From Candidatus Jorgensenbacteria bacterium (GTDB taxonomy: Bacteria; Patescibacteriota; Minisyncoccia; UBA6257; GWB1-50-10): 64,000 bases of DNA. A model generated the notes under the pieces. The model saw only the letters and a program-made list of their open reading frames with translations, made no database searches and had not been told where the DNA came from. Each line of letters starts with the position of its first letter. Within the stretch, counting starts at the first letter, position 1. Location: NCBI GenBank assembly GCA_030648515.1, contig JAUSHK010000003.1, positions 44,710-108,709 of the forward strand, given 5' to 3'. Below are positions 2,939 through 61,660 of this stretch, piece after piece. A program made the position numbers and the translations under genes.

Positions 2939-2978
2939 TGCTTCAATTATACCTCTTATAATGGGGAGATGTTAATCA

Positions 2979-27589: not shown

Positions 27590-27598
27590 GCCTGTCCC

Positions 27599-30197: not shown

Positions 30198-31523
30198 TTA
30201 TTGAGCTAACTGAACATGGAAGTGTCGATCTGCGCCAGTTTCTCTGCATAACTTACCAACTTTACTAGGCGAAGCATAAGCTTTGAGATTATTAAAATCC
30301 TTATCATTTGCAACGCATAATTTAGTAACCCTTGGATTGTCAATAAGGTATTTACCGAGTACGTCCCACGCAAGCTCATTGCTTCTATTTTTAGGAACGA
30401 CGTCAAAAATTGGCTCGCCGGGGCCATGCGTGTTGTGCCCCTCCTCGGTTCCTCCGGTTACTTCAATTTGGCACGGGGGCCATCCACTAAGCGGTTTTGT
30501 CCCAACTTGTATTTCGCAATTTTGCGGGATTTCCTTAAGAAAAGTAATAACGCTATTAGGCATTCCACTAAGAGACGTGCAGTTAGTGGCTTTAGCGGTC
30601 GGACAATCTAGTTTGTTTATGGTAATATTTTTATTTACTTCTAGTTCAGCTCTTAAAGCTGCGTCCGAAGAATAACTTGCTTCCCCTTGTAAACTTGTAA
30701 TTTGTTGCCCTTCAATAATACAAGCGCTCAAATCATCCCGTAGCTGCACTGATTGCACAGATTGCTTCCCGTCATTATAGTCAGGCGGCTGATAAGCGTA
30801 TATGAGACACTTCGCGCTTTCCGAAGGTGTCACAGAGCCTTTTATAAAATACGGATAACTCCACACGATTGAACTTATGGGAATTGAAATATTATAGGTA
30901 GTCAGCCCAAGATAATAATACTTTTTATCCCCAGCGTTTGCGCTGAGCGTTATCTGTTTTGTGGTTACCGTCTTTCGGAATTGGCATCCGTCAACTTCCC
31001 CGGGGACTTCGCTTAAATACAGAATACTAGCTGGATCTCCGCAACTTTTACTCTCAGCCCCGAGCGAAAGGGATGACGACGCTACTGTTTTTTGCGGAGC
31101 GTACGGCTCTTTAAGCGTCACAAGTTCCGGATTGATGGTATTTAAGATGAGATAAGTGCCGAAGAGCAGGACAATCCCCCAAATGGCAGAGGTAATCATC
31201 TCTCTTCCAAGCCCGGCTTTTGTAACATCGCCTGTCGTCGCGGAAATATAAATGCCGCCGGCAATAATCATTCCGACCGCGAGAATGCCCGCTATCGCGA
31301 TGCCGAATTGGTAAATCTTTTTAATGTAATCAATGAACGATGTATCGCTGCTTACGCCAACAGTGCAGTCTTGCCCGAGTTGCCCGGCTGGACACGGAAA
31401 ATTAATGTCTACGATTTGCGATGTGGCAGACGGATCAGTTTTTTCTTGTCCGTATGCCAGCGCGCCAGACATTGTAAACATCACAGTGAATACAAGCAGA
31501 AGAAGAACTAAAAATTTTTTCAT
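30198..31523 (-). CDS. VirB2/TrbC-like pilin module fused to large Cys-containing extracellular domain
   Basis: signal peptide, helix-loop(SATTGD..GREM)-helix identical in architecture to paralogs at 53657..55426, then ~310-aa domain with 10 Cys. Confidence 0.45.
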   Translation of the reverse strand: MKKFLVLLLLVFTVMFTMSGALAYGQEKTDPSATSQIVDINFPCPAGQLGQDCTVGVSSDTSFIDYIKKIYQFGIAIAGILAVGMIIAGGIYISATTGDVTKAGLGREMITSAIWGIVLLFGTYLILNTINPELVTLKEPYAPQKTVASSSLSLGAESKSCGDPASILYLSEVPGEVDGCQFRKTVTTKQITLSANAGDKKYYYLGLTTYNISIPISSIVWSYPYFIKGSVTPSESAKCLIYAYQPPDYNDGKQSVQSVQLRDDLSACIIEGQQITSLQGEASYSSDAALRAELEVNKNITINKLDCPTAKATNCTSLSGMPNSVITFLKEIPQNCEIQVGTKPLSGWPPCQIEVTGGTEEGHNTHGPGEPIFDVVPKNRSNELAWDVLGKYLIDNPRVTKLCVANDKDFNNLKAYASPSKVGKLCRETGADRHFHVQLAQ

Positions 31524-32566: not shown

Positions 32567-34324
32567 TTATTGCTTTTCAATCCCCTTCATCTCGAGCATT
32601 TGCTCCGGATTTGTCGTGATAATCTGGTCCTCGGTGTACGACGCAATAACCTTAAGCGCGACGTGTTTCAATCCAGCGAAGAAAAGCCCTTCGCCGACGT
32701 TTGCTTCAAGGAGAAACGCCTTCTCGCCTTCCGTAAGGCCGAATGTCTGCGCGACCGGCGCGATGCTCGCGGGTGATTGTTTCATAAGAAGCTGGAGCGA
32801 AGAGTTTGTAATGATTGGCCGGCCGTAGTCCGACTTAATGAAATCCTCAACGTCTTGCGTAATCGTTGTAATGCCGAGATAGTATTTGCGCGAGCGTTTT
32901 ACGAGACCAAAGAGGAACGCCGCGCTGTCCTTATACTTCATCATCCACCACGCCTCATCAATGACGAGGATTCTTGGTTTTAGCTGCGAGCGGATGAGGT
33001 TCCAGACGAAGTTTAAAACAATATACATTGCAATCGGCCGCAACTCTTCCTCAAGATCGCGGATTGAAAAAACAATCAGGCGGTTTTTAACATCAACATT
33101 GGTCGGGGCATTCGTAAATCCGGCGTATGAGCCGTTCACGAACTTTTCAAGCCGCTGGCCGATTCCGCGCCCGCCCTCGGTGTTTTGAAGAATTGTCTGG
33201 AGGTCTCCCAAAAGCGGCGGATTAAGCTCTTTCATTGAGCCGAAATTTTCCGCCGTAATGTCGCGCGAGGCATAGGTTTCTGTAATCACGCGGTCAAGGA
33301 TCGCGTCCTCCTCGGGCGTTACGACTCCCAGCATAAGTTTTACAAGGCCGGTAAGGTTCAAGATGTGGGATTTAAACACGTCCGCCGGCTCCTCCCCTTC
33401 CGGTATCACTGGAATATCAAACGGGTTGATGTGGCTCTCGGACGTAAGAGAAATTTTAAAGTAGCTGCCGCCGATCGCGTTTGAAAGATTTTCATACTCA
33501 TTCTCGGGGTCAATGATGATTACGTCATTCCCGAGCATGAGCGATCGGAGAATTTCAAGCTTTGTTGCGTATGATTTCCCGGCACCTGCTTTCGCGAACA
33601 CAACCTGGTTCGCGTTTTCAAGCGAGAAGCGGTCAAAGATGACAAGTCCGTTATTGTGAAGATTTATCCCGTAAAGAATGCCCTTGTCCGATGAAAGATT
33701 TGGCGAGACAAATGGAAAAAGAGACGACGCAGGTCCCGAATTGAGGGGCGTGTGAATCTGAATCTGGTCCTGATTCAGCGGGAGGACCGAATTAAATCCC
33801 TCAATCTGGCGGAAAAGCGCTGGCTTTATGTAGACAAGCTTGCTTTCTAAAACGTTTTCAACGGTGTGCTCAAGCCGGTTTAATTCCTCAATGCTTGCGC
33901 CATAAAACGTGATATAAACCCCGACTTTAAAAAGATGTTCTTGTGCTTGCATCAGCATATCGCGAAGATTCTCTACGTCTTCCTGCGCGGTTTCAAGCGC
34001 CGGGTCGCGCACAAGCCCTTTCTCCTCCTTTTCTGAAAGTTCCACCTCAATTTGCGTAATTTTCTTTTTAAGGCCGCGAAGCGCGAGCGCTGTGTCCATT
34101 GGGTGTATGAAAATTGAGATGTCCATCATTTGCGCCATATTAATAATAGGAGAGAACCACCCGCTTGATATGTATCGCGGATAAGTGAAGATGAAGACGG
34201 TTTTCGCGTAGTAATCGCCGATTTTAAGATAGTTCGAGCTTACCTCAAGGCCGGCGGGGGCGATAATATTTGGAATGTCTTCCTCGGGAGACGCTTTGTA
34301 AGCTTTCGGAATTTTAATATCCAT
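32567..34324 (-). CDS. VirB4/TrbE-like (Gram-positive type) conjugation/secretion ATPase
   Basis: Walker A AKAGAGKSY, Walker B ILVIDEAWWM, N-terminal region with conserved hydrophobic block typical of VirB4-family. Confidence 0.7.
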   Translation of the reverse strand: MDIKIPKAYKASPEEDIPNIIAPAGLEVSSNYLKIGDYYAKTVFIFTYPRYISSGWFSPIINMAQMMDISIFIHPMDTALALRGLKKKITQIEVELSEKEEKGLVRDPALETAQEDVENLRDMLMQAQEHLFKVGVYITFYGASIEELNRLEHTVENVLESKLVYIKPALFRQIEGFNSVLPLNQDQIQIHTPLNSGPASSLFPFVSPNLSSDKGILYGINLHNNGLVIFDRFSLENANQVVFAKAGAGKSYATKLEILRSLMLGNDVIIIDPENEYENLSNAIGGSYFKISLTSESHINPFDIPVIPEGEEPADVFKSHILNLTGLVKLMLGVVTPEEDAILDRVITETYASRDITAENFGSMKELNPPLLGDLQTILQNTEGGRGIGQRLEKFVNGSYAGFTNAPTNVDVKNRLIVFSIRDLEEELRPIAMYIVLNFVWNLIRSQLKPRILVIDEAWWMMKYKDSAAFLFGLVKRSRKYYLGITTITQDVEDFIKSDYGRPIITNSSLQLLMKQSPASIAPVAQTFGLTEGEKAFLLEANVGEGLFFAGLKHVALKVIASYTEDQIITTNPEQMLEMKGIEKQ

Positions 34325-34352
34325 GTAAATAATTAGTAATTAAGGGTTAATG

Positions 34353-34994
34353 CTATTGTTTTCGCGTGGCCTCCAAATTTTTCTTTTCGGTAAGCTGCGG
34401 ATTGTAGAGATTGTAAAAAAGCTCGACCATTTCATCGTCCGCGAGTTCAGCTGTCCGAAGCCCGATTTGCCCAAGGCCGCTAGTGACTTGCGACACCCTC
34501 TGCTCAAGCTGTTCTGCGTTTTCTTTTTCGGTATTCTCCTTTTGTTTCTGATTTGGTTTTTGTCCAAGGACTCCGCTTAAGAAACCGCGCGCTTCAGAAA
34601 CAAGAATAAGTGGCTCGTACGGGACGATTACAAAGAAAGCCTTATCAATAATAGCGTTTTGCTCGACAAATGACTTAATGAACTCAACATATTCCGCAAT
34701 CTGGATTTTGAGGAGTTCATTTGTTTCCTCGTTTTTACGCGCAAGCATGCGCTCAAGATAACTCTCAATATTCACTTTCCTTGAATGGATGAAAAATTGT
34801 ATTGGGAAGTCAAGTCCGTTCAGAAAATTCTGGAACGTACCGAGAATCATTTCCTGTTCTTCCTCTGATTTGAGATCGAAATTAATTCCGCTTACAATTA
34901 AAATTTTTCGCAGCCCGCCCTTTTTTAAATAGACGATGCTGTTTTTAACCTCTTTAATTTCTACGAATTTTTGCGTCGGCAAAGATGGCTCCAT
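34353..34994 (-). CDS. hypothetical cytoplasmic protein of T4SS-like operon
   Basis: 213 aa, no TM; no recognisable motif. Confidence 0.4.
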   Translation of the reverse strand: MEPSLPTQKFVEIKEVKNSIVYLKKGGLRKILIVSGINFDLKSEEEQEMILGTFQNFLNGLDFPIQFFIHSRKVNIESYLERMLARKNEETNELLKIQIAEYVEFIKSFVEQNAIIDKAFFVIVPYEPLILVSEARGFLSGVLGQKPNQKQKENTEKENAEQLEQRVSQVTSGLGQIGLRTAELADDEMVELFYNLYNPQLTEKKNLEATRKQ

Positions 34995-35006: not shown

Positions 35007-35489
35007 TTAGTAATCTATGCGCTTTGCCACAACTTTTTCTCCGGTTATCCGCGTAACGACCTGAAGTCGCTCCCCCGAGGATTCCTTGCTCTCGGTAAAT
35101 ATTTTTCCCGTTGCGATATTCATAGTAATAGATTTCAACTTTTCCTGGATGCTCATCGTGTTCCGCACTGCCTTAATCCGCTCAATATCGGAAACGTCAA
35201 CGTCTTTTGATATTCTCTGCCACGTGTAGACGCGCGGCTGCCACATATATGAGAGTCCAGAGAGAAGTGCCTGCGTGGCGTCTTGCCCATTGATTTTTAT
35301 AAACGCGAGCGCCGCGGCGGCTCCGCCCACGATAATCGTAATCAAAATCCAGAAAAACATGTTGAAAATGTTATATGAGATAACACTAATAAGGAACGCG
35401 CCCGCGATAAAGAAAAACTGCCGGAGCGTAAGTGGTCCGATGATTTTTGCCTTTTCTTCAATGAATTGTGGGACTTGGAATGTTGCCAT
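35007..35489 (-). CDS. 2-TM membrane protein (possible PrgI/VirB3-like)
   Basis: 160 aa, two adjacent TM helices near N-terminus then soluble tail. Confidence 0.35.
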   Translation of the reverse strand: MATFQVPQFIEEKAKIIGPLTLRQFFFIAGAFLISVISYNIFNMFFWILITIIVGGAAAALAFIKINGQDATQALLSGLSYMWQPRVYTWQRISKDVDVSDIERIKAVRNTMSIQEKLKSITMNIATGKIFTESKESSGERLQVVTRITGEKVVAKRIDY

Positions 35490-48872: not shown

Positions 48873-49148
48873 TTACGCCTCAATCGCGAGTTTCTTCGCG
48901 AGCTTTTCGTATTTCTTCTCGTTCGTGTGTTTTAAATATTCCAAAAACTTCCTCCGCTTCCCTACCATCATAATAAGCCCGCGGCGCGAGTGATGATCCT
49001 TCGCGTTTTTCTTTAAATGGTTCGCGAGTTCGCTGATACGCTTCGTAAGAATGCCGATTTGCACCTCCGCCGAGCCGGTATCCCGATCGTGTTTTTGGTG
49101 TTCTTTTATGACCGTCTGCTTTTTACGTTTAGTAAGCATATATCTCAA
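48873..49148 (-). CDS. rpsO: 30S ribosomal protein S15 (true start probably at second Met, 49139)
   Basis: DTGSAEVQIGILT..HLKKNAKDHHSRRGL conserved S15 core. Confidence 0.8.
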   Translation of the reverse strand: MRYMLTKRKKQTVIKEHQKHDRDTGSAEVQIGILTKRISELANHLKKNAKDHHSRRGLIMMVGKRRKFLEYLKHTNEKKYEKLAKKLAIEA

Positions 49149-49242
49149 TCGTACCGCAAATATGTTTGATTGTCAAAATTCCGTCCGAAATGGTGCCTGC
49201 CCCGTTTCCAACGGGTGTCGCACAATAATGTACAATAAAGAT

Positions 49243-50139
49243 ATGACAGAGATTGAAAAATTGATGCAGGATTACCTTTCCTATCTTGAAATTGAAAAAA
49301 ACCGCTCCCGAAAAACGCAGGAAAATTATGGGCGCTACCTCAAGGTTTTCATAAAGGAATCAGGAATACGATCGGCGCGCGACATAACGCAGGACACGGT
49401 CCGCAATTTCCGATTGAAACTCGCAAAAGGAGATACTAAAAAAATAACGCAGAGCTATTACGTTATCGCGATACGCAGCTTCTTAAAATATCTCATAAAG
49501 CGCGGGATGAAAGCGCTCTCTCCTGAGATGATTGAACTGCCTAAGGTAACGCGGCGGGAAATAGAAGTATTGAGTTATGACGAGCTTGAGCGGCTCGTTG
49601 GCACTCCTGCCGGAAGCGATATTCGTTCGCTCCGCGACAGGGCGATTTTAGAAACGCTGTTTTCAACCGGCCTCCGCCTTTCGGAGCTCTGCTCGCTTGA
49701 TAGGTATATTGATTGGAAACGCGGCGAGATTTCAATCCGCGGAAAAGGCGACAAATTGCGCGTTGTGTTCCTCTCCCCTACCGCGAAGGAAAAACTCAAA
49801 GCGTATCTTGATAAGCGCACCGACACGGAAGAAGCGCTCTTTGTAAGCATTTCAAAAGCCAAAGTCCCGAAAGTTTTGGGACGCGTAATTCCGCGCGCGG
49901 TGGAGCGCCTTGTTGATTTTTATGCGCGCAAAGCCGGTATCGCTAAAAAAGTGCATCCGCATCTCTTGCGTCACTCGTTTGCCACCGACTTATTAGTAAA
50001 CGGCGCCGATCTCCGCTCGGTGCAGGAACTCCTTGGCCACGCGAATATCGCGACAACCCAAATCTACACACATCTCACAAATAAAGAGCTCCGCGAAGTC
50101 CACTCCGCCTTTCACGGCGTAAGGAGAAAGGAGAAATAG
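49243..50139 (+). CDS. tyrosine site-specific recombinase XerC/XerD family (start at internal Met; track ORF extends to 49051)
   Basis: R..H..R..Y catalytic motifs (LLRHSFAT, LLGHANIATTQIYTHL). Confidence 0.75.
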   Translation: MTEIEKLMQDYLSYLEIEKNRSRKTQENYGRYLKVFIKESGIRSARDITQDTVRNFRLKLAKGDTKKITQSYYVIAIRSFLKYLIKRGMKALSPEMIELPKVTRREIEVLSYDELERLVGTPAGSDIRSLRDRAILETLFSTGLRLSELCSLDRYIDWKRGEISIRGKGDKLRVVFLSPTAKEKLKAYLDKRTDTEEALFVSISKAKVPKVLGRVIPRAVERLVDFYARKAGIAKKVHPHLLRHSFATDLLVNGADLRSVQELLGHANIATTQIYTHLTNKELREVHSAFHGVRRKEK

Positions 50140-50165
50140 CTTTGGTACTTGTGGTTAACCCTTAA

Positions 50166-50759
50166 TTAAGCTTTAGCATCCTTATCATTTTCTTCTTTTG
50201 TTTTTTGCAAGATAGACCGCAATTGTTCTGTATATCCATTTATTCTTTCATATTCTTGACCATCCGTTGTTCTTGTTTTTCCCTCAATGAAATCATATCT
50301 GATATCTGCAAAATCTTCTATATAAATTTCTTTTTTATCGGTAGTTATAAATATATATTTATCCCCATTCTTGGTGATTGTATTTATGCCTAATTTTAGT
50401 AATTCGGCATTTCCTATGTCCTTGCCCATTTTTTCTATGTTATGCAATAAAGCTTTCAATTTTTTATTGACTTCATTTTTATTCAAAAAATTATCCTTCA
50501 TTACAATTCTGGATTTTAAGATTAATTCGGTGTTATAAGACAATAAAATATAAAGGGATCTTAAATAAGCTGAACCGTCGAGCCGACATCTTTCTGAGTC
50601 TAAGTAGTTTTTTATAAAAGAAAGTCCAGTAGAAGCCCTGGTTGCCATACGAAACGCAATATCATATTTTTCTTTTTTATTCATTTTTTCTTTTATTATT
50701 TTAAATCTTATGAGTAAAATAAAGGCAAAAGTTATTATTGCGTCTTTTACTTTTTTCAC
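50166..50759 (-). CDS. hypothetical protein in low-GC cassette
   Basis: 197-aa ORF in ~30% GC segment, 4-nt overlap with upstream partner gene. Confidence 0.4.
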   Translation of the reverse strand: MKKVKDAIITFAFILLIRFKIIKEKMNKKEKYDIAFRMATRASTGLSFIKNYLDSERCRLDGSAYLRSLYILLSYNTELILKSRIVMKDNFLNKNEVNKKLKALLHNIEKMGKDIGNAELLKLGINTITKNGDKYIFITTDKKEIYIEDFADIRYDFIEGKTRTTDGQEYERINGYTEQLRSILQKTKEENDKDAKA

Positions 50760-51067
50760 ACCTTTAAATTTACTAAAAAGGAAACCAGCTCAACTTTTGT
50801 CTTAAATCTTTTAATAATATCCAACGCTATTTGTTCAAGTGGACTACCTAAAAAATCAGTTTTCAGTATGGGAAAACATTTTTCAATAACCGATGGATTA
50901 TCGCATCTCCAAATTAATTTAGGAAAAATAAAAAATATTTGCTCATAAATTTTGATTCCAGAAATTGAATTGCCAATCGTTACCTTTTCATTACTGTCTA
51001 AAAGTAATTCTATTTCGCTGGGATAAATTGATGTGCTGTCTTGATATGTGTGAATAATTTTGCCCAT
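50756..51067 (-). CDS. hypothetical protein in low-GC cassette
   Basis: 103-aa ORF, translationally coupled to 50166..50759. Confidence 0.4.
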   Translation of the reverse strand: MGKIIHTYQDSTSIYPSEIELLLDSNEKVTIGNSISGIKIYEQIFFIFPKLIWRCDNPSVIEKCFPILKTDFLGSPLEQIALDIIKRFKTKVELVSFLVNLKV

Positions 51068-51111
51068 GTTTTTGAAATTATTTTTTTACTAATGTTAATT
51101 ATTTCTTCCTG

Positions 51112-51193
51112 TGCCTCCGAGAGGATTTGAACCTCTAACCCTTGCGGGACAGCGTCCTAAGCGCTGCGCGTATGCCAGTTCCGCCACGGAGGC
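51112..51193 (-). tRNA. tRNA-Leu (anticodon TAG), long variable arm
   Basis: 82-nt cloverleaf by hand: acceptor GCCTCCG/CGGAGGC, 3-bp D stem, anticodon loop CTTAGGA, 13-nt variable arm hairpin, T-loop TTCAAAT. Confidence 0.8.
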
Positions 51194-51280
51194 ATGAACC
51201 CCGTGTAGTTACATAACTATTTACGGGGTAACCCTGATTTCATGGGCTAATTCCCCTCATAATACCAGCGTTTCTGCTAT

Positions 51281-51309
51281 TTGACAAATAAAGTTTTTCG
51301 CGGTATTAT
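51281..51309 (+). promoter_or_regulatory. near-consensus sigma70 promoter TTGACA-N17-TATTAT
   Basis: exact -35, 17-nt spacer, 5/6 -10; ~58 nt upstream of ATG 51368 with AAAGGAG RBS. Confidence 0.6.
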
Positions 51310-51367
51310 TTTAATAGAAACTTAATTCATTAAATACGAGACAAAATTATAAGAAAGGAGTTGTGCT

Positions 51368-51769
51368 ATGGAAAAGGTAAACATGGGTTTTTCAAAACTG
51401 TTAAAACTACTAACAATGACTGACTGTAAGAAAGATATCGAAAAATTTAAGGAAGAAATGTTGATACTCGGTCTCTCTATAGAATTCATATGCAATCCAA
51501 CCGTTTTATCAGAGTTGACAATTGATGGTTCAGGCAACAACCCAGAGATTGATCGTGGTTCAATAAATTCTTCCGACCTCGATGATAGAATCCTTCCATG
51601 TATTACTTTAGGAAGTGCGGAGAAAATCCAGAAGTTTTTAGAAGAAAATCACGCAGATGGGGCGTTGGTACTTTCGGGACTAATAAATGGAAATAGGTAT
51701 GACGGATATATATTTTCCATTACAATCCAGCCATATAAGTTAATTCGCCAAGGCGGAAAAGATTCATAA
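51368..51769 (+). CDS. hypothetical protein
   Basis: 133 aa, strong RBS and consensus promoter, followed by terminator. Confidence 0.45.
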   Translation: MEKVNMGFSKLLKLLTMTDCKKDIEKFKEEMLILGLSIEFICNPTVLSELTIDGSGNNPEIDRGSINSSDLDDRILPCITLGSAEKIQKFLEENHADGALVLSGLINGNRYDGYIFSITIQPYKLIRQGGKDS

Positions 51770-51843
51770 CGGCCTTTTGTGTAGAGTTAGGATACAATTT
51801 TATTCATGGTATAAATTAGTAGTAGTGCTAACTTTCTAAAATA

Positions 51844-51872
51844 CTCCCTTGTTAACAGCAAGGGAGTTTTTA
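51844..51872 (+). terminator. rho-independent terminator
   Basis: stem ctcccttg/caagggag, then TTTTTATT. Confidence 0.65.
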
Positions 51873-51957
51873 TTAGTAAATTCTACTATTTCAGTTGCGC
51901 CATAAAATACCGCATTTTTCCTAGGTTTTCTACATAATAACACCAATTTTTCGCTGT

Positions 51958-51986
51958 TTGACAAATCCGTGCTCTCGTGCTAGAAT
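51958..51986 (+). promoter_or_regulatory. consensus sigma70 promoter TTGACA-N17-TAGAAT
   Basis: exact -35, 17-nt spacer, 5/6 -10; upstream sequence duplicates that of promoter at 51281. Confidence 0.6.
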
Positions 51987-52037
51987 ATGACCAGTTATTA
52001 AACAATTAAAAACTCTAATTTAAGAAAGGAAAAATCA

Positions 52038-53600: not shown

Positions 53601-53640
53601 GCGACAAATAAAAACCCCCGAAAGGAATTTCGGGGGTTTC
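53601..53640 (-). terminator. rho-independent terminator of minus-strand pilin-like operon
   Basis: stem cccccgaaa/tttcggggg, GGAA loop; on minus strand followed by TTTTTATTT. Confidence 0.6.
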
Positions 53641-53656: not shown

Positions 53657-54100
53657 CTAGAAACTTGGTCCGCCAGGTACTCCTCTTTGATCGGGTGGGG
53701 TTGCATTAAAATTTCCTGGCTGGCCTAGTATAGGCGAACCAAAGTTGTTAATAGAAGGTTGCGATGTGTCCGCAGTGCCCGCCCCTAAAATGTTTTGCGT
53801 AAACGCAATAATGCCTTTTGCAAGAATTGCGATCGCAACCGCAATCACGGCATACACAATTTGTTTCTTTGCTTTCTCAAGCTTCTCTGTGTCCCCTTGC
53901 GAAAAAAGAAACATATACGCGGCGTATACAATAAAGAGTACCGCAAGAATGAGAAGAAGATAATACGCCCAATTGGTTATGCTTACGATTAGATTAACGA
54001 CTCCTTGTGGCGTATCAACTGCATGAGAAACCTGCGCCAACGCGAACGTTGGCGCAGATAACGCAAGAAACGTAATACTGTTTTTTATGCCTTTCAACAT
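53657..54100 (-). CDS. VirB2/TrbC-like pilin-family small secreted double-helix protein (paralog 4)
   Basis: signal peptide, hydrophobic helix, SQGDTEK loop, second helix; Gly/Pro/Asn-rich mature N-terminus. Confidence 0.45.
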   Translation of the reverse strand: MLKGIKNSITFLALSAPTFALAQVSHAVDTPQGVVNLIVSITNWAYYLLLILAVLFIVYAAYMFLFSQGDTEKLEKAKKQIVYAVIAVAIAILAKGIIAFTQNILGAGTADTSQPSINNFGSPILGQPGNFNATPPDQRGVPGGPSF

Positions 54101-54113
54101 CGAGGAATTTTAT

Positions 54114-54482
54114 TTATCGGCCAAGCGGTGTTGCTGTGCCCTGGCCAAAGAAATTAAGGACAAAACCGACCATTCCTTTCGCGAGAATCGCGATTGCTAT
54201 TGCAATGACAGCGGCAATAATCATCTGCCTCGCCTTTCCTGTTTTTTCTTCATCACCTCCGGAGGTGAGATAGAGGAATGCTGCATAAACAATGAAAATG
54301 ACGGCGAGAATGAGAAGGATGTAAAACATCCAATTCACTATGGCATTACCAAGGCTTGAGATTTGGCCAGACGTGCCATAATCCGCTGTGTTTGGGAGAT
54401 TGAAGCCCCCCGGACCTGCCTGCGCGCCCGCAATAACCGGCAAAACAGCCGCTCCCAGCCCCCACATAATTTTTTTAAACAT
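54114..54482 (-). CDS. VirB2/TrbC-like pilin-family protein (paralog 3)
   Basis: same module: ..IVYAAFLYLTSGGDEEKTGKARQMIIAAVIAIAIAILAKG. Confidence 0.45.
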   Translation of the reverse strand: MFKKIMWGLGAAVLPVIAGAQAGPGGFNLPNTADYGTSGQISSLGNAIVNWMFYILLILAVIFIVYAAFLYLTSGGDEEKTGKARQMIIAAVIAIAIAILAKGMVGFVLNFFGQGTATPLGR

Positions 54483-54534
54483 TTTTTTGATTTTTATTAG
54501 TGTAATCCTCGACCTTTCAGGATTATTTCAATTA

Positions 54535-55002
54535 CTATGATACATTCAGCATGTATTGAATAAGCGAAGTAATGCTTTTTGCAAGTATGATTATACCATA
54601 CCCTATCACGGTGTATAGAATCGTCTGCCTGCCCCTTTTAAACCGTTCAGGATCGCCGCCAGAAAAAAGCATCTGAAAAGCGCCGATGATAATCATAAGC
54701 ACAGCGATTGCCCCGCCGAGTGTTATAAGCCAGCCGACAATTGAATCAAGAAGAGAATAAATTGTGGTGTTTTGACCGAGAGGGTTTTGGAGTCCCTGTA
54801 AAGCGCTTGAGTTTGTCCCATAACCAGCTGCGGGAGGGTTTGTTCTGTAGCCAGTTGCAGGCGGATTTACACCGCCGCCCGCAGCGGGCGGATTTGTCAA
54901 GTAGCCAGTTTGTGCCAAAACAAAACTTGGGCCAATGACTATTAAAATTGTCAATGCTGTAAGGAAAACAACAAAACTACTTTTTTTTGCACCGCACTTC
55001 AT
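54535..55002 (-). CDS. VirB2/TrbC-like pilin-family protein (paralog 2)
   Basis: same module with PPAAG repeats in mature N-terminal region; hairpin downstream at 54485..54510. Confidence 0.45.
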   Translation of the reverse strand: MKCGAKKSSFVVFLTALTILIVIGPSFVLAQTGYLTNPPAAGGGVNPPATGYRTNPPAAGYGTNSSALQGLQNPLGQNTTIYSLLDSIVGWLITLGGAIAVLMIIIGAFQMLFSGGDPERFKRGRQTILYTVIGYGIIILAKSITSLIQYMLNVS

Positions 55003-55015
55003 TGGTTAGATTATA

Positions 55016-55426
55016 TCACTCGCACCTTACTTGCGACCATGGGACATTAGCTCCGCCGGTAAGAATATGAAAAACCTCATTTACAAGAAGCCATGCGAGA
55101 ACAACAATCACGAGCCCTATAATCGCGCTTGTAATCTTTGACCTCCCGCTTCCAAACCTGCTGGTATCTCCGGCGGATGTCATCATTAAAATTGCGCCAT
55201 AAACAATCATTACGATTGTGACTAAAATCGCGATTTGAACCATGTAGTTGATAATATTCGAAGTTACGATAATGCCGTCGCAAAAACTGCACGGCCCAGT
55301 AGGCCCGCCGGTTGTGATTTTTGGCGCGTTAGGATTAGAACTGCAGGTAGCGCCTGCCCAAATATTCTGCGCCCCCGCGACGAAGGGAAGGAAGTAAGCT
55401 AAAGCAATAAATAAATATTTTTTCAT
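55016..55426 (-). CDS. VirB2/TrbC-like pilin-family protein (paralog 1)
   Basis: same module: ..IVYGAILMMTSAGDTSRFGSGRSKITSAIIGLVIVVLA; Cys pairs in mature N-terminal part. Confidence 0.45.
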   Translation of the reverse strand: MKKYLFIALAYFLPFVAGAQNIWAGATCSSNPNAPKITTGGPTGPCSFCDGIIVTSNIINYMVQIAILVTIVMIVYGAILMMTSAGDTSRFGSGRSKITSAIIGLVIVVLAWLLVNEVFHILTGGANVPWSQVRCE

Positions 55427-55427
55427 T

Positions 55428-56735
55428 TTATTTTCTTCCCATTAGCGCCGTAACCGCATCCTGCGCCTTGCGGAGCGCCGTCTCGGCAATCGCGGCATTT
55501 GTGTTTACCTCCATAATAGCCTGCGAAAGCGCCGCGCTGATTGTGTCCTCGTCAATTTGCGGCCATGAGCGGGCGGTAAGCGTCTGTCGCGCGAACGCCC
55601 CAAGTTCTACGTCGTTCTGGTCAGTAATCGCAACGCTCTTTAATGCGGGCGGTTTGCGAGTTGCGGCAAAATACTGCTGCGCCGCAGTCGGGCTCATTGT
55701 AACGTCCATTATAAATTCCCACGCGAGCGCCTGTTGCTGCGATTGGCGGGAAACCGCGAGGCCGTAATATTGCGGGAACGAAACTCTGTTTGCGACCGCC
55801 GCATTTGCCGGCTGAGGCGCGGGGATGACTCCGAAGTTTAAGAAAGCATTCCGCGCCTTGATGTCAGGAATCGCCGAGGCAAACCCGAACATCATTGCGG
55901 TTTTTTCCTGCGCAAACGCGTCGCGATCATTCGCGAAGCCGTCGTTCCACGCATATGTCTTGCTGCGCGTATCTGAAAATTGTGTATAGAATTTCAAGGC
56001 GTTCACGCCCTCGGGGGAATTCGCGAATGTCGCGTTTGAAAAATCCGGCGAGACCATCGCGGTGCCGTTCTGAAGCATTAAAAGTTCAAGAATTGAAGGC
56101 GCGTCCGTAATGCTTTTCACCGAGCTTCCGATTGCCGCGCCCGACTGCGTTATCTTCCCCGACGAATCGTACTTGGTAAGTTTAGGAATAATCGCCGAAA
56201 AATCTTCCCATGTCTGCGGCGCGGCGACTGTCGCTTGGTCAAGAAGATTGCGGTTGTAATAGAGCGCGAGCGTGTCAATTGAAAGCGGCAGCGCGTACGT
56301 ATAATTTTGCTGAACAAAATCCTGTCGGACGACCTGCGGGAACGCGTCAAGAAGCGTAGCAGCAGGAAGCGCATCGCTTCCGATTGGCACAATTTTATTA
56401 ATCATCCTCGGCAAGTCCGTGTTGCGAATCATGAAAATGTCCGGGCCGGATATGGAAGCAAGCGCCTCAAGAAGCGCCTGCTGGTATTCGCCGTACGTCT
56501 CAAAGTTGCGGTAGGAAACGGTAACCTTGGGATAAACGGCGTTGAAACTCGCAATCACGGTATCAAGCTCGCTGCGCGATTTTGAAACGCCCCAAATTGA
56601 AAGCGCCCCCGTGATTTTTGTTTTGTCGTTGCCGCCGCCTTTTTGGAAAGCTGGAACAACGGCGATACCGATAAGCACAAGCACGATTAAAAGCGCCGCG
56701 CCCATGAGAATGATTTGATTTTTACTGAAGTTCAT
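55428..56735 (-). CDS. extracellular solute-binding protein family 1 (MalE-like) homolog, orphan (no ABC permease/ATPase adjacent)
   Basis: N-terminal TM/signal anchor, SBP_bac_1-like two-lobe sequence; stop overlaps within 2 nt of first pilin-like gene. Confidence 0.6.
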   Translation of the reverse strand: MNFSKNQIILMGAALLIVLVLIGIAVVPAFQKGGGNDKTKITGALSIWGVSKSRSELDTVIASFNAVYPKVTVSYRNFETYGEYQQALLEALASISGPDIFMIRNTDLPRMINKIVPIGSDALPAATLLDAFPQVVRQDFVQQNYTYALPLSIDTLALYYNRNLLDQATVAAPQTWEDFSAIIPKLTKYDSSGKITQSGAAIGSSVKSITDAPSILELLMLQNGTAMVSPDFSNATFANSPEGVNALKFYTQFSDTRSKTYAWNDGFANDRDAFAQEKTAMMFGFASAIPDIKARNAFLNFGVIPAPQPANAAVANRVSFPQYYGLAVSRQSQQQALAWEFIMDVTMSPTAAQQYFAATRKPPALKSVAITDQNDVELGAFARQTLTARSWPQIDEDTISAALSQAIMEVNTNAAIAETALRKAQDAVTALMGRK

Positions 56736-56775
56736 TAGGGGTAGTAATTAGAAATTAGGAATTAGTAATTAACAG
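56736..56775. repeat. AGTAATTAG-family motif array immediately upstream of SBP/pilin-like operon
   Basis: ggggtagtaattagaaattaggaattagtaattaac. Confidence 0.5.
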
Positions 56776-56802: not shown

Positions 56803-59289
56803 CTAGAGGCATACGATGCCGATGAGGCTGTCCCCTTCTTCAAGGTTCATGACTTTGACTCCTTGCGTCGCGCGTCCGGCAATTCTAATTTGCCCTATCT
56901 TGCTTCGTATCGCCTGTCCCTTTGAAGAAAACGCGATTACTTCTTCCATTTCTTCGCCTACAATCCGCGCATCAATTACGACGCCGGTTTTTGGCGTAAC
57001 TTTCGCGGTTTTAATTCCGGACCCTCCGCGGTGCTGAACCTTATATTCCTTGAGCGGTGTTTGTTTTCCGAAGCCGTGCGCCATTACAACAAGCAGTTTC
57101 GCTCCCTGTACTTTCTTGTCACTTCTTATTATATCAAGTCCCGCGACGATGTCGCCCTTCTTGAGGCGCATTGAGTGAATACCGGCAGCGGTTCTTCCCA
57201 TTTGCCGCACATCTTTCTCTTTAAACCGAATAGATTGTCCTTGCGCCGTAACCATAATTATTTCATCCACTCCTATTGAACGCCGCACCCACCGAAGCGA
57301 ATCGTCTGGCTTAATCTTTAAAGCGATAATGCCGCTCCGTCTCACGTTTTCAAAATCTTTGAGCGCGGTCTTTTTAATGACGCCGCCGCGCGTTGCCATT
57401 ACGAGATAGCCGGATTTTTTCTCTTCGCTGGAATATGTCACGATTGCCGCAATTTTTTCCTCCTGCGAAAGCGTAAGGAAATTATGCACGGACTTGCCCT
57501 TCGCGGTGCGGCTTGCGACCGGAATTTCGTGCACTTTTGTCTGGAACGCGCGCCCGCGGTCGGTGAAGAAGAGCGCGTTGTCGTGCGTGTTCGCGGAGAG
57601 AATATCGTAGATCTGGTCTTCTTCCTTGAGTTCAATGCCGATAAGCCCCTTCCCGCCGCGCTTCTGAGCGCGGAAAGATGTCGGCGGCATGCGTTTTATG
57701 TAACCATCTTTCGTAAGCGTCACGATGACTTCCTCCTGCGGAATCAAATCTTCCTCATTGAATTCTTTGAGTCCCGACGCGATAAGTTTTGTTTTTCGCG
57801 CGCTCGGGTACGCCGCCCGCATCTCCCCCGCTTCGTGTTTTATAATCTCCGCGATTTTCTTCGGGCTCTTTAAAATTATCTCGCACTCCGTAATAAATGT
57901 TTTCTTTTCTTTGAGTTCGTCCTCAATCTTGTGCCGCTCAAGCGCCGCGAGCGTCTGGAGTCGCATCTCAAGAATCGCGTTTGCCTGAATCTCCGTAAGA
58001 GTAAACTTTTTCATCAGGTTTGTCCGCGCGTCATCCTTGTCTTTTGATTTCTTAATCGTCTCAATAACTCTATCTATCGCGTCAAGCGCTTTTACGAGCC
58101 CCTCCAATATATGCGCCCGCTCCTTCGCTTTCTTTAAATCAAACTCGGTCCGCCTGCGGACCACGACCGTCCGGTGCTTCAGGTATTCGCTCAAAATTTC
58201 TTTGAGTGACAGTACCTGTGGCTGAATGCCGTCAACCAAGGCAAGCATATTGAAATGGAAATTTTTCTGAAGTTCGGTGTAGCTGTAAAACTGGTTTAAA
58301 ACTTTTTGCGGAGCGCCGTCTTGTTTCAGCTCAACCACAATGCGGAATCCCTCGCGGTCGGACTCGTCGCGTATGTCGCGAACGCCCTCAACTTTTTTTG
58401 AAACTACAAGGTCCGCCATTTTTGAAATGAGGTCTGACTTGTTCACCTGATACGGAATTTCCGTGATGACGATCTGGAACCCGCCGGCTGCCTGCCCTGA
58501 GCTTGTCGAACGGGTTCGTTCCTCAATTTCCGCAACGGCGCGCATCGTAACGGAACCGTGTCCAGTCGCATACGCTTCCTCAAGCGCTTTTTTGTCGTAG
58601 ACGACTCCACCAGTCGGGAAATCAGGTCCAGGGATAAACTGCATAAGCTCTTTCGTGTCAGCGTCCGGATGCTCGGCAAGATGCATAATCGCGTCAAGCA
58701 CTTCAACTAAATTGTGCGGAGGAATTGAAGTCGCCATGCCGACCGCGATGCCGACGACGCCGTTCAAGAGCAAGTTCGGAAGTTTTGCGGGAAGATATTT
58801 CGGCTCTTCGCGCGAGCTGTCGTAGTTCGGCTGCCACTCAACCGTTTCTTTTTCAATGTCCAAAAGAAGTTCCTCGGAAATTTTTGTAAGCCGCGCTTCG
58901 GTGTAACGCATCGCGGCGGGCGCGTCGCCGTCAACCGAACCCCAGTTTCCCTGACCGTCAATAAGCGGATAGCGCAGAGAAAAATCCTGCGCCATGCGGG
59001 CGAGCGTGTCATAAATCGCGGAGTCCCCGTGCGGATGGTACTTGCCCATCACTTCTCCGACTACGTTCGCTGACTTGCGGAATTTCGCGGTGTGGAGAAG
59101 GCCGGTGTCCCACATAGCCCAGAGAATTCTCCGTTGAACAGGCTTCATCCCGTCGCGCACATCAGGCAGCGCGCGCGCGATGATGACGGACATCGCGTAA
59201 TCAAGATATGACTCGCGAAGCTCGTCTGTAATTTCGCGCGGCTCAATGCGCTCAATGCTCACTGGTGGTTTTTCTTTTGATTTATCCAT
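56803..59289 (-). CDS. gyrA: DNA gyrase subunit A
   Basis: active-site region HPHGD..Y, QRR motif, C-terminal beta-pinwheel repeats. Confidence 0.9.
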
Positions 59290-61560: not shown

Positions 61561-61650
61561 GCAGGTAATTAGCAATTAGTAAATAGTAATTAGGAAATAA
61601 AAAGAATTGCCACTAGTCGTTGGATAATTCGATTAATTACTAATTACCAA
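61561..61650. repeat. AGTAATTAG-family motif arrays (direct and inverted) upstream of ftsH
   Basis: ggtaattagcaattagtaaatagtaattagg ... taattactaattacc. Confidence 0.5.
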
Positions 61651-61660
61651 TTTCCATTTT

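What the first reader, a model, noticed from the sequence alone, without database searches (positions are those of the whole stretch)
53657..56735. Operon of an orphan solute-binding protein translationally coupled to four tandem VirB2-like pilin paralogs
Seen: four consecutive minus-strand genes (136, 155, 122, 147 aa) share a signal peptide, a hydrophobic helix (..IVYAA..), a short loop (S[GAQ]GD[TEP]E/R..G/K.[AG]R) and a second hydrophobic helix, with variable Gly/Pro/Asn/Cys-containing mature N-termini. The first paralog starts 2 nt after the stop of 55428..56735, a family-1 extracellular solute-binding protein homolog with no ABC permease or ATPase genes nearby. A hairpin (54485..54510) separates paralogs 2 and 3, and a terminator (53601..53640) ends the operon. 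Established: the two-helix hairpin with a short loop after a long signal peptide is the VirB2/TrbC pilin architecture. Inference: a set of major and minor pilin subunits, with the SBP homolog possibly a ligand-binding pilus-associated or tip protein rather than a transporter component. The same module occurs in the T4SS-like operon 13 kb away (30198..31523).
Basis: partly seen in the sequence, partly recalled or inferred. Interest (0 to 1): 0.75.

Follow-up and report, generated by a model that had tools for sequence, protein, structure and literature searches.

The report
Sugar-binding protein coupled to pilin array
In this ultra-small (Patescibacteria) bacterium, a membrane-anchored sugar-binding protein with no transporter genes nearby is always encoded directly in front of an ordered set of conjugation-type pilin genes; such pilin arrays are already known, but the strict coupling to the binding protein seems not to have been described and gives a testable clue to what this essential, unexplained secretion system handles.

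Summary
On the minus strand, gyrA is followed by a 435-aa MalE-like solute-binding protein (SBP), a 1-nt spacer, four small pilin genes and a strong terminator.

- **Pilins:** All four exceed Pfam's threshold for T4SS_pilin (PF18895), and two also for TrbC/VirB2.
- **Organism:** The window comes from a Candidatus Jorgensenbacteria genome. It also carries a VirB4/PrgI secretion cluster next to dnaA.
- **Already published:** Tandem VirB2-like pilin arrays in Patescibacteria were reported in 2023 and 2025.
- **Apparently new, coupling:** In 70 of 70 related loci with enough downstream sequence, the SBP ortholog is followed at once by 1-7 pilin genes (2-7 where the whole array is visible). This holds where gyrA linkage is lost and for double-SBP variants.
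- **Apparently new, no transporter nearby:** No sugar-type ABC permease or ATPase lies within ±8 kb in 84 loci or in the 64-kb window. Four of four non-Patescibacteria controls have them adjacent.
- **Apparently new, fixed order:** Class 1 (Cys-rich) comes first, then class 2, then class 3, which is duplicated here.
- **Fusions:** One metagenomic protein fuses the SBP to a class-1 pilin. One class-1 pilin carries a lytic transglycosylase domain.

The SBP has a conserved transmembrane anchor, so a role at the pilus tip is unlikely. Whether permeases exist elsewhere in the genome could not be tested.

The parts
56803..59289 (-). gyrA, the conserved upstream neighbour. It is probably co-transcribed in many relatives; here it is separated from the SBP gene by 67 nt.
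   Evidence: ORF. GyrA lies directly upstream on the same strand in most related loci, with gaps often of 1-40 nt or overlapping.
56742..56771 (-). Array of about 4 heptamer repeats (TAATTNC) ending 6 nt before the SBP start codon. It is a possible promoter or 5'-leader element.
   Evidence: Tandem Repeats Finder. The same repeat lies just before the virB4 and ftsH start codons. There are 11 matches against 0.03 expected.
55428..56735 (-). Membrane-anchored family-1 (MalE/GacH-like) solute-binding protein. It has a TM helix at residues 5-26, a low-confidence linker at 26-34 and the first strand of the bilobal domain at residue 43.
   Evidence: PF13416 102.8 bits and PF01547 87.4 bits. AlphaFold pLDDT 92.3. 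Foldseek top hits are oligosaccharide SBPs at E 1e-24 to 1e-26. PDB sequence hit GacH at 1.7e-15.
55016..55426 (-). Class-1 pilin (pilA-type). It is Cys-containing, with the N-terminal motif QNIWxGxxC...GPCxFCD and the C-terminal tail PWxxxxC. It starts 1 nt after the SBP stop codon.
   Evidence: PF18895 40.6 bits. Orthologs occupy position 1 in 64 of 73 cases, with a median of 70.9 bits against 35-39 for other positions. All position-1 pilins have at least 2 Cys. Helical hairpin model.
54535..55002 (-). Class-2 pilin (pilB-type) with a Pro/Gly/Asn-rich repeated N-terminal extension (TNPPAAG-like).
   Evidence: PF18895 51.8 bits and PF04956 32.9 bits. Orthologs occupy position 2 in 44 of 50 cases.
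54114..54482 (-). Class-3 pilin, copy a (pilC).
   Evidence: PF18895 44.8 bits. Orthologs occupy position 3 or later. It is 61% identical to pilD over the core.
53657..54100 (-). Class-3 pilin, copy b (pilD), with a 45-aa Gly/Pro/Asn-rich C-terminal tail.
   Evidence: PF18895 44.3 bits and PF04956 28.1 bits. Positional evidence.
53611..53640 (-). Intrinsic terminator that ends the operon.
   Evidence: 13-bp stem, 6 G-C pairs, T-run.
30198..31523 (-). 441-aa pilin-domain fusion protein in the secretion-system cluster. It has an N-terminal pilin hairpin and a 300-aa Cys-rich C-terminal domain of unknown function.
   Evidence: Family pilin HMM E = 5.5e-20. The C-terminal domain is BLAST-homologous to extensions of array pilins in loci L064, L067 and L027. 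No Pfam or PDB match.
32567..34324 (-). VirB4-type ATPase of the oriC-proximal type IV secretion cluster. It is the presumed assembly motor for the pilins.
   Evidence: PF19044 TraG P-loop 87.4 bits and AAA_10 42.1 bits.
35007..35489 (-). PrgI/VirB3-like protein of the same cluster.
   Evidence: PF12666 PrgI 41.4 bits.

Best explanation
This is a conserved core-genome operon of a Parcubacteria-type Patescibacterium (Candidatus Jorgensenbacteria). It encodes a cell-surface, membrane-anchored oligosaccharide-type binding protein and, translationally coupled to it, an ordered set of VirB2/TrbC-type pilins.

**Shown**
- The four small proteins belong to the T4SS_pilin family.
- They form three ancient classes in a fixed order: class 1 is Cys-rich and always sits next to the SBP gene, class 2 follows, and class 3 is duplicated here.
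- The SBP is a complete MalE-like two-lobed receptor with a conserved transmembrane anchor.
- The SBP-then-pilins gene order is invariant across distant relatives.
- No ABC permease or ATPase lies nearby.

**Inferred**
- The pilins are exported by Sec and cleaved after the A-x-A motif before Gln.
- They insert as helical hairpins with both termini outside the cell.
- The VirB4/PrgI machine encoded next to oriC assembles them into a pilus or short stalk. The variable N- and C-terminal tails would lie on its surface.
- The SBP works with this structure at its membrane base, not at its tip. It would act as a ligand-recognition or capture component for a host-derived or wall-derived saccharide.
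- The class-1 pilin is its most likely direct partner.
For: **Family membership.** PF18895 scores of 40.6-51.8 bits (cut-off 26.6) for all four proteins, and PF04956 above cut-off for two. NCBI names the first one 'pilin'. The AlphaFold model shows a signal helix plus a helical hairpin.

**Secretion machine in the same window.** VirB4 and PrgI lie next to dnaA and dnaN, as described for Paceibacteria in PMC12102498.

**SBP.** Pfam, model pLDDT 92.3, and Foldseek hits to oligosaccharide SBPs at E about 1e-25.

**Synteny.**
- 70 of 70 loci with at least 450 nt downstream have a pilin as the next gene. The median gap is 10 nt, with 15 overlaps.
- Linkage persists where gyrA is absent or displaced: L001, L009, L027, L079/L080 and L095.
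- Tandem double-SBP variants also keep it.
- A look-up starting from the pilin side finds the same block.

**Local orphan status.** No CUT1 permease or ATPase in 84 loci (±8 kb) or in the window. Four of four non-Patescibacteria controls have them adjacent.

**Positional orthology.**

**Fusion.** P0128 (568 aa) joins the SBP in frame to a class-1 pilin, and both junction ends are extracytoplasmic.

**Anchor conservation.** The SBP anchor is nearly as conserved as its globular domain: 0.51 against 0.56 mean top-residue frequency, with Q7 at 85% and G29 at 83%.

**Wall-degrading fusions in orthologous arrays.** An SLT lytic transglycosylase sits on a class-1 pilin (E = 3.4e-21), and a weak VanY match sits on a position-2 pilin.
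Against: - No pilus has been seen in any Patescibacterium, so assembly into a filament rests on family inference alone.
- The whole ftsH-S1-gyrA-SBP-pilin block is syntenic in this clade. Some of the adjacency could therefore be inherited gene order rather than functional coupling.
- The array lies 13-25 kb from virB4 here, and virB4 is never within ±8 kb in 84 loci.
- Structure and sequence searches against solved pilins gave nothing significant.
- The SBP-pilin fusion is a singleton from one 3.9-kb contig and could be an assembly error.
- ABC permeases elsewhere in the genome were not excluded.
- The ligand is unknown.
Confidence: 0.6

Rival explanations
1. The SBP is an ordinary receptor of a sugar ABC importer whose permease and ATPase genes lie elsewhere in the genome. 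It sits beside the pilins only because both are envelope genes carried in one inherited, compact housekeeping operon downstream of gyrA. There is no physical or functional interaction.
For: The SBP is a complete, canonical MalE-like receptor. The whole upstream block (ftsH, S1, beta-lactamase-fold gene, gyrA) is also syntenic across these lineages, which shows that gene order here is generally conservative. Orphan SBPs that share a distant permease are common in monoderm bacteria (own knowledge).
Against: The SBP-pilin adjacency survives when the gyrA context is lost, and it holds in 70 of 70 loci, mostly with very short or overlapping junctions. No permease lies within ±8 kb in any of 84 loci, whereas all four non-Patescibacteria relatives have them adjacent. 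The anchor helix is unusually conserved. One SBP-pilin fusion exists.
Confidence: 0.3
2. The hairpin proteins of this locus are not filament subunits. They stay in the membrane as a platform or as carriers that hold extracellular domains and the SBP in place. This would be a bindosome-like surface assembly and might be independent of the VirB4 machine.
For: The pilin hairpin is repeatedly fused to extracellular domains: an SLT on L052, a VanY-like domain on L086, and the unknown domain of the window's 441-aa protein and of L064, L067 and L027. The array is never next to virB4. The SBP is membrane-tethered. The Sulfolobus bindosome is a precedent for sugar-binding proteins assembled with small pilin-like proteins (PMC3047682).
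Against: The family is homologous to TrbC/VirB2 pilins. In Saccharibacteria, arrays of the same family lie inside the T4SS cluster and are essential with it (PMC10633639; PMC12857230). The SBP lacks a class III (prepilin-type) signal peptide (sequence).
Confidence: 0.15
3. The small proteins belong to an unrelated two-helix membrane family such as holins or bacteriocin immunity proteins.
For: They are short, with two hydrophobic helices. Pfam gave only a noise-level Phage_holin_1 match (E = 0.31, 12 bits against a cut-off of 22).
Against: All four pass the curated threshold of T4SS_pilin, and two pass TrbC. They have cleavable-looking signal peptides. There is no phage or bacteriocin context; this is a core-genome location conserved in more than 80 loci.
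Confidence: 0.01

Closest known systems
VirB2-like pilin arrays of Patescibacteria (Southlakia epibionticum ML1 T4SS locus, Wang et al. 2023, PMC10633639; survey by Quinonero-Coronel et al. 2025, PMC12102498)
   Same: Same Pfam family (PF18895/PF04956). Both are tandem arrays of 2-11 divergent paralogs in a Patescibacteria chromosome that also carries a monoderm-type VirB4/PrgI secretion system near dnaA, with no relaxase context.
   Different: Here the array is not in the T4SS cluster. It lies in a gyrA operon and is always preceded by a MalE-like SBP. The paralogs form three conserved classes in a fixed order, rather than looking like free diversification. Neither paper mentions a solute-binding protein or gyrA.
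TrbC/VirB2 conjugative pilins of diderm bacteria (Pfam PF04956)
   Same: Signal peptide, two hydrophobic helices joined by a short basic loop, HMM similarity, and a mature N-terminus predicted to start with Gln.
   Different: The host is a monoderm. There are several ordered paralogs. No significant match to solved pilin structures or sequences was found. No adjacent VirB5/VirB6. Cyclisation or acetylation is unknown.
MalE/GacH-type family-1 solute-binding proteins of CUT1 ABC importers
   Same: Pfam SBP_bac_1/8, a full two-lobed fold, and best structural matches to malto-, cyclo- and sophoro-oligosaccharide binders.
   Different: No permease or ATPase genes in the operon or within ±8 kb in 84 loci. 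It has a conserved transmembrane anchor instead of a lipobox in 81 of 82 sequences. It is obligatorily linked to pilin genes.
Sulfolobus bindosome (Bas system; PMC3047682)
   Same: Sugar-binding proteins whose surface deployment depends on small pilin-like proteins encoded together with an assembly ATPase.
   Different: The bindosome uses type IV (class III signal peptide) pilin-like proteins, and its SBPs carry class III signal peptides themselves. Here the pilins are of the VirB2 type and the SBP has a plain signal anchor. This is an analogy only.
PrgZ (pCF10) and TraC (pAD1) pheromone-binding proteins of enterococcal conjugative plasmids (own knowledge, not tested here)
   Same: An orphan SBP encoded with a monoderm conjugation-type system, working without its own permease genes.
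   Different: Those are OppA-like family-5 peptide binders that borrow the chromosomal Opp permease for signalling. This one is a family-1 sugar-type binder in a chromosomal housekeeping operon.
Mbov_0395 family pilin-like conjugal transfer protein of Mycoplasma ICEs (NCBIfam NF045849)
   Same: A small pilin-like two-helix protein in a monoderm MPF-FATA-type system. All four pilins give sub-threshold matches (E = 5e-8 to 2e-4).
   Different: Scores of 21-32 bits are below the cut-off of 40, so these are not members. The ICE protein is a single gene in a mobile element.

Membership tests
TrbC/VirB2-type T4SS pilin (Pfam PF18895 T4SS_pilin / PF04956 TrbC) | Profile HMM match above the curated threshold | tested here: met
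   PF18895 scores of 44.3, 44.8, 51.8 and 40.6 bits against a cut-off of 26.6. PF04956 scores of 28.1 and 32.9 bits against 27.9 for two of the four.
TrbC/VirB2-type T4SS pilin (Pfam PF18895 T4SS_pilin / PF04956 TrbC) | Signal peptide followed by two hydrophobic helices joined by a short polar/basic loop | tested here: met
   Alignments. The AlphaFold model has helices at 2-23, 48-82 and 88-122, with core pLDDT of 84-92. Signal-peptide cleavage itself is inferred from the sequence.
TrbC/VirB2-type T4SS pilin (Pfam PF18895 T4SS_pilin / PF04956 TrbC) | Genome encodes a VirB4-type assembly machine | tested here: met
   VirB4 (32567-34324) and PrgI/VirB3 (35007-35489) are in the same window. They are not adjacent to the array, and never lie within ±8 kb in related loci.
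TrbC/VirB2-type T4SS pilin (Pfam PF18895 T4SS_pilin / PF04956 TrbC) | Similarity to experimentally solved pilin subunits | tested here: inconclusive
   Foldseek against PDB gave no hit with E < 0.001; the Aeropyrum conjugation pilus 8dfu ranked 9th at E = 4.1. A profile search against PDB sequences found no pilin. tblastn against plasmids gave one weak unannotated hit.
TrbC/VirB2-type T4SS pilin (Pfam PF18895 T4SS_pilin / PF04956 TrbC) | Polymerises into an extracellular pilus | not testable with these tools
   This needs microscopy or proteomics. The reviewed literature speaks only of a 'potential' to make pili in Patescibacteria (PMC12857230).
Patescibacterial VirB2-like pilin array (PMC12102498) | Two or more tandem PF18895/PF04956 genes, highly divergent from one another, in a Patescibacteria genome that has VirB4 | tested here: met
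   Four tandem genes at 27-39% identity, with one pair at 61%. The organism is Candidatus Jorgensenbacteria. VirB4 is present.
Patescibacterial VirB2-like pilin array (PMC12102498) | Location inside or next to the virB4 cluster | tested here: not met
   The array is 13 kb from the end of the cluster and 19 kb from virB4. The paper itself finds the pilin near virB4 in only 1135 of 1948 assemblies, so this feature is not strictly defining.
Family-1 (CUT1, MalE-like) ABC-importer solute-binding protein | SBP_bac_1/SBP_bac_8 domain and a two-lobed periplasmic-binding-protein fold | tested here: met
Family-1 (CUT1, MalE-like) ABC-importer solute-binding protein | Encoded with two MalF/MalG-type permeases and an ATPase | tested here: not met
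   None was found in the 64-kb window or within ±8 kb in 84 related loci, while four of four non-Patescibacteria homologs have them adjacent. The genome-wide situation was not testable.
Family-1 (CUT1, MalE-like) ABC-importer solute-binding protein | Binds a solute and delivers it to a permease | not testable with these tools
   Many aromatic and acidic residues are invariant across the family (W176, W263, W391, Y84, Y250, Y323, D99, D154). This is compatible with a conserved binding site. Mapping these residues onto the MalE contact residues was unreliable.
Archaeal bindosome (Bas) | SBP carries a class III (prepilin-type) signal peptide, and the partner proteins are type IV pilin-like | tested here: not met
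   SBP N-termini (MxLTKxQxIIxG...GVIPGL) have no leader with Gly/Ala at -1. The partners are VirB2-type.
Holin / bacteriocin immunity proteins | Profile match and a phage or bacteriocin gene context | tested here: not met
   Phage_holin_1 E = 0.31, below the cut-off. The context is a core housekeeping block.

The most novel reading that the evidence does not exclude
In this large Patescibacteria clade, an ABC-type sugar receptor has been detached from ABC permeases and recruited to the VirB2-like pilin/T4SS apparatus. The class-1 Cys-capped pilin would dock it. The SBP would then sense or capture host-derived or wall-derived oligosaccharides for a T4SS-dependent attachment or uptake device. 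In effect this would be a bacterial 'bindosome' built from conjugation-type pilins. It would give the first molecular handle on what the essential Patescibacteria T4SS handles.
Probability: 0.15. Interest if true: 0.9.

Novelty: new variant of a known kind. Interest (0 to 1): 0.6.

Why it matters
The type IV secretion system and its pilin array are essential for the host-dependent life of the one Patescibacterium tested genetically. Their role is described as completely unknown, with import of host material among the speculations (PMC11665869, PMC12857230).

If the SBP really is a dedicated partner of the pilins, a soluble and easily expressed protein (residues 40-435) becomes a probe for the ligand this machinery deals with. 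The fixed three-class pilin order also gives concrete hypotheses about subunit roles: an adaptor or cap subunit, a second subunit, and an expandable major subunit.

If the SBP instead feeds a distant permease, the finding reduces to a conserved but mixed operon.

Tried and rejected
- **Foldseek of the pilin model against PDB.** It returned only generic helical hairpins, none significant.
- **Pilin profile against PDB sequences, and tblastn against plasmids.** No informative hits.
- **Mapping E. coli MalE ligand-contact residues onto the SBP.** The alignment, made with mafft --keeplength (74 of 288 aligned positions identical), lost three contact positions. I discarded it as unreliable.
- **Hairpin between pilB and pilC as a regulatory element.** It is not better than shuffled sequence. 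The internal promoter-like site at 54617-54590 is one of 7 found against 5.6 expected, so I did not use it.
- **C-terminal domain of the 441-aa pilin fusion as a VanY/LAS-type peptidase.** A memory-based lead came from its H...H-x-G...D...H-x-H pattern, and a joint alignment has invariant H, H, D and H. There is no Pfam or PDB hit, and hhalign against the VanY-like group is not significant (E = 0.16). This remains open.
- **Extending the window with the look-up of encoding contigs from the end genes.** This failed or returned only a 4-kb contig.
- **Literature.** No held paper combines solute-binding protein, pilin and Candidate Phyla Radiation. The library is incomplete, so prior description cannot be excluded.

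Full report
**1. What is in the sequence**

Five ORFs lie head to tail on the minus strand between 53657 and 56735.
- A 435-aa protein is encoded at 55428-56735.
- Four small proteins follow, of 136, 155, 122 and 147 aa.

The first small gene starts 1 nt after the stop codon of the large one. The remaining gaps are 13, 52 and 13 nt.

A strong intrinsic terminator closes the unit: a 13-bp stem with 6 G-C pairs and a T-run at 53640-53611.

gyrA (56803-59289) lies 67 nt upstream on the same strand. Downstream, a Band_7/SPFH gene and a small membrane-protein gene converge on the operon.

It folds no better than shuffled sequence (z = -0.89).

**2. What the proteins are**

*The four small proteins.*
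- All four exceed Pfam's curated threshold for T4SS_pilin (PF18895: 40.6-51.8 bits, cut-off 26.6). Two also exceed the threshold for TrbC/VirB2 (PF04956).
- They share a hydrophobic leader ending in A-Q, two hydrophobic helices and a short S-x-G-D...K/R loop.
- The AlphaFold model of the first shows a signal helix (2-23) and a helical hairpin (48-82, 88-122) with a confident core.
- Comparison with solved structures was uninformative, as expected for a bare hairpin.
- The holin alternative has no support (E = 0.31).
- NCBIfam gives sub-threshold matches to the Mycoplasma ICE 'pilin-like conjugal transfer protein'.

*The large protein.*
- It is a full family-1 solute-binding protein (PF13416 102.8 bits, PF01547 87.4 bits).
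- Its model has pLDDT 92.3. It shows an N-terminal transmembrane helix (residues 5-26), a short linker (low confidence at residues 26-34) and a two-lobed domain whose first strand starts at residue 43.
- Its best structural matches are oligosaccharide binders: 5ci5, cycloalternan-binding Lmo0181, GacH, and cyclo/maltodextrin and sophoro-oligosaccharide binders, at E = 1e-24 to 1e-26. The PDB sequence search agrees.

**3. Organism and wider context**

The identical SBP is on record from a Candidatus Jorgensenbacteria MAG contig of 151,741 bp. This places the window in Patescibacteria/CPR.

The window also holds the following.
- dnaA and dnaN are at 24.6-27.3 kb.
- Next to them is a monoderm-type type IV secretion cluster at 29.0-40.5 kb. 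It includes VirB4 (32567-34324), a weak TraC-like fragment (34353-34994) and PrgI/VirB3 (35007-35489).
- KsgA follows at 41311-42093.

This is exactly the oriC-proximal arrangement reported for Paceibacteria (PMC12102498).

Gene 30198-31523 in that cluster encodes a 441-aa protein. Its N-terminus is a pilin domain (family HMM E = 5.5e-20), fused to a 300-aa Cys-rich domain. It is not a second SBP+pilin module.

No ABC permease or ATPase was found among the window's ORFs.

**4. Is the SBP-pilin linkage more than chance?**

I collected 84 Patescibacteria loci that encode orthologs of the SBP (37-52% identity) from genomes and metagenomes. I searched them with a pilin HMM built iteratively from the four window proteins.

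*Adjacency.*
- Of 70 loci with at least 450 nt downstream of the SBP gene, all 70 have a pilin as the next gene on the same strand.
- The median gap is 10 nt. In 33 loci the gap is 5 nt or less, and 15 of those overlap.
- In the 40 loci with at least 4 kb downstream, arrays hold 2-7 pilins. The commonest size is 3, in 22 of the 40.

*Neighbouring genes.*
- gyrA is directly upstream in most loci. The block ftsH-S1-(beta-lactamase fold)-small gene-gyrA is itself syntenic.
- Part of the adjacency could therefore be inherited gene order.
- However, the SBP-pilin pair persists where gyrA is absent or displaced: L001, L009, L027, L079/L080 and L095.
- It also persists for tandem double-SBP variants.
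- It is recovered when starting from the pilin side.

*Permeases.*
- Four of four non-Patescibacteria SBP homologs are followed by two permease genes and have an ATPase nearby.
- Using those proteins as queries, I found no CUT1 permease or ATPase within ±8 kb of any Patescibacteria locus or in the window.
- VirB4, PrgI and DnaA are never within ±8 kb either. This array is therefore systematically separate from the secretion-system core.

**5. The paralogs are ordered classes, not free duplicates**

Every array pilin from the other loci was assigned to its best-matching window pilin.
- pilA-like proteins sit at position 1 in 64 of 73 cases.
- pilB-like proteins sit at position 2 in 44 of 50 cases.
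- pilC- and pilD-like proteins sit at position 3 or later.

Median bit scores agree.

| Window pilin | Best-matching position | Median bits there | Median bits at other positions |
|---|---|---|---|
| pilA | 1 | 70.9 | 35-39 |
| pilB | 2 | 65.9 | 35-41 |
| pilC, pilD | 3 and 4 | 54-59 | 35-45 |

*Class 1* is distinctive.
- Every position-1 protein has at least 2 Cys, with a mean of 5.7. Positions 2 and 3 average 1.4 and 0.3.
- It has an N-terminal IWxGxxC...GPCxFCD motif and a tail of about 14 aa ending PWxxxxC.

*Class 3* is the class that expands. Here pilC and pilD are 61% identical over the core.

This pattern points to division of labour among subunits that predates these lineages. It points less to the antigenic-variation-like diversification suggested for other Patescibacteria arrays (PMC12102498).

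**6. Clues to a physical and functional link**

(a) *Conserved anchor.* The SBP's membrane anchor is almost as conserved as its globular domain. Mean top-residue frequency is 0.51 against 0.56. The motif is MxLTKxQxIIxG...GVIPGL, with Q7 at 85% and G29 at 83%. Only 1 of 82 sequences has a lipobox-like motif. This is unusual for a simple tether and suggests contacts within the membrane.

(b) *A fusion protein.*
- A search of 1.84 billion representative proteins found 2092 relatives at E ≤ 1e-30.
- Among the best 150 is one 568-aa protein (P0128). It joins the SBP in frame to a class-1 pilin through a remnant of the pilin's signal peptide.
- Both junction ends are extracytoplasmic, so the fusion makes topological sense.
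- It is a singleton on one 3.9-kb contig and may be an assembly error.

(c) *Extra domains on array pilins.*
- In orthologous arrays the pilin hairpin sometimes carries an extra domain.
- A class-1 pilin in L052 has an SLT lytic transglycosylase domain (E = 3.4e-21).
- A position-2 pilin in L086 has a weak VanY match (23.8 bits, cut-off 25).
- The unknown C-terminal domain of the window's 441-aa protein recurs on array pilins of L064, L067 and L027.
- Together with an oligosaccharide-type SBP, this is compatible with a module that acts on cell-wall glycans. That reading is inference.

**7. Most likely mechanism**

*Shown.*
- Family memberships of the SBP and the pilins.
- Gene order and tight coupling of the SBP and class-1 pilin genes.
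- The three pilin classes.
- Local absence of permeases.
- Presence of a VirB4 machine in the same genome region.

*Inferred.*
- The pilins are exported by Sec and cleaved before Gln.
- They sit as hairpins with both termini outside the cell.
- The VirB4/PrgI machine polymerises them into a pilus or stalk, with their variable tails exposed.
- The SBP stays tethered to the membrane at the base. There it cooperates with the pilins, most plausibly class 1, as a ligand-recognition or capture component.

A distal tip role is unlikely because of the anchor and the short linker. I put about 0.6 on this overall reading: about 0.85 for the pilin part and about 0.5-0.6 for a genuine functional SBP-pilin partnership.

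The main rival, at about 0.3, is an ordinary ABC receptor whose permease lies elsewhere in the genome. A second, partly overlapping rival, at about 0.15, is a non-filamentous membrane platform similar to a bindosome.

**8. Comparison with what is known, and novelty**

VirB2-like pilin arrays in Patescibacteria are already published.
- They are essential in Southlakia epibionticum (PMC10633639).
- A survey of 3,035 genomes found 441 arrays of 2-11 genes using the same Pfam models (PMC12102498).
- They are discussed in a 2025 T4SS review (PMC12857230).
- NCBI already names these genes 'pilin' and 'extracellular solute-binding protein'.

Four things are not mentioned in those papers or found by full-text searches.
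- The strict coupling of an SBP to the array.
- Its placement in a gyrA operon away from virB4.
- The fixed three-class order with a Cys-capped first pilin.
- The SBP-pilin and pilin-hydrolase fusions.

I therefore rate it a new variant of a known kind. The paper library is incomplete, so earlier description cannot be ruled out.

The nearest functional analogies are the Sulfolobus bindosome (PMC3047682) and, from my own knowledge, the orphan pheromone-binding SBPs PrgZ and TraC of enterococcal conjugative plasmids. Neither membership test is met.

**9. Limits**

- Genome-wide absence of permeases was not tested.
- No ligand, filament or complex has been shown.
- Signal-peptide cleavage is read from the sequence only.
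- The 80 metagenomic loci are the best 80 of at least 550 matches, so more distant SBP relatives were sampled only sparsely.

Noticed in passing
window 56742-56771 (-), 34329-34342 (-), 61634-61654 (+) with inverted partner 61565-61599 (-), 2977-3009 (+) / 3048-3073 (-): Arrays of a 7-nt repeat (TAATTNC, 2-4 copies) lie 4-9 nt upstream of the start codons of the SBP gene, virB4 and ftsH. At two sites they form inverted pairs. There are 11 matches of the 19-mer against 0.03 expected. An ortholog locus (L091 5940-6000) has a different period-7 repeat at the same place before the SBP gene. This may be a promoter or leader element shared by the pilin operon and the T4SS operon.
   Followed up: partly
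window 30198-31523 (-): A 441-aa protein in the T4SS cluster has an N-terminal pilin hairpin fused to a 300-aa Cys-rich domain. That domain recurs on array pilins in other loci (L064, L067, L027) and has invariant His, His, Asp and His residues. It has no Pfam or PDB match and no significant profile link to the VanY-like group. A metallo-hydrolase role is only a guess.
   Followed up: partly
L052 6773-7924; L086 9753-10724: Pilin hairpins are fused to cell-wall hydrolase domains in orthologous arrays. L052 carries an SLT lytic transglycosylase (PF01464, E = 3.4e-21). L086 carries a weak VanY D-Ala-D-Ala carboxypeptidase match (23.8 bits, below the cut-off of 25). These could be VirB1-like functions carried on a pilin scaffold.
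   Followed up: partly
L093 1951-3657 (protein P0128): A single 568-aa predicted protein fuses the SBP in frame to a class-1 pilin through a truncated signal peptide. It is a singleton on one 3.9-kb Logan contig, so it could be a real fusion or an assembly error.
   Followed up: partly
L094 56-2593; L095 1449-3890: Some relatives encode tandem double-SBP proteins of 813-845 aa with two full SBP domains. These are still followed directly by T4SS_pilin genes.
   Followed up: partly
window 55428-56735, residues 1-35 of the protein: The SBP's transmembrane anchor has a conserved sequence motif (MxLTKxQxIIxG...GVIPGL) across 77 distinct orthologs. It is nearly as conserved as the globular domain. 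This is unexplained. It may mark a contact inside the membrane.
   Followed up: partly
window 24658-27308 and 27309-27854: dnaN and dnaA with an AT-rich gap before yidC (27855-28550) mark the probable replication origin. The T4SS cluster starts 1.7 kb beyond it, matching the oriC-proximal T4SS location reported for Paceibacteria.
   Followed up: no
window 50001-52000: GC content dips to 0.34 around tRNA-Leu (51111-51193). Three ORFs there have no Pfam match (50166-50759, 50756-51067, 51368-51769), next to a XerC-like tyrosine recombinase (49051-50139). The recombinase is syntenic in relatives, so it is probably housekeeping, but the low-GC ORFs may be a small insertion.
   Followed up: no
window 32252-32563 (-): A 103-aa membrane protein is encoded just downstream of virB4. 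It has a loop (KNKGDADSKKIGRQ) that aligns with the pilin loop motif. It lacks a signal peptide and is not hit by the pilin HMM or by Pfam.
   Followed up: no
L009 1-299: In one related locus the gyrA gene carries an intein with a LAGLIDADG homing-endonuclease domain; the product is 1286 aa. Several other loci also show GyrA ORFs of 1212-1295 aa.
   Followed up: no
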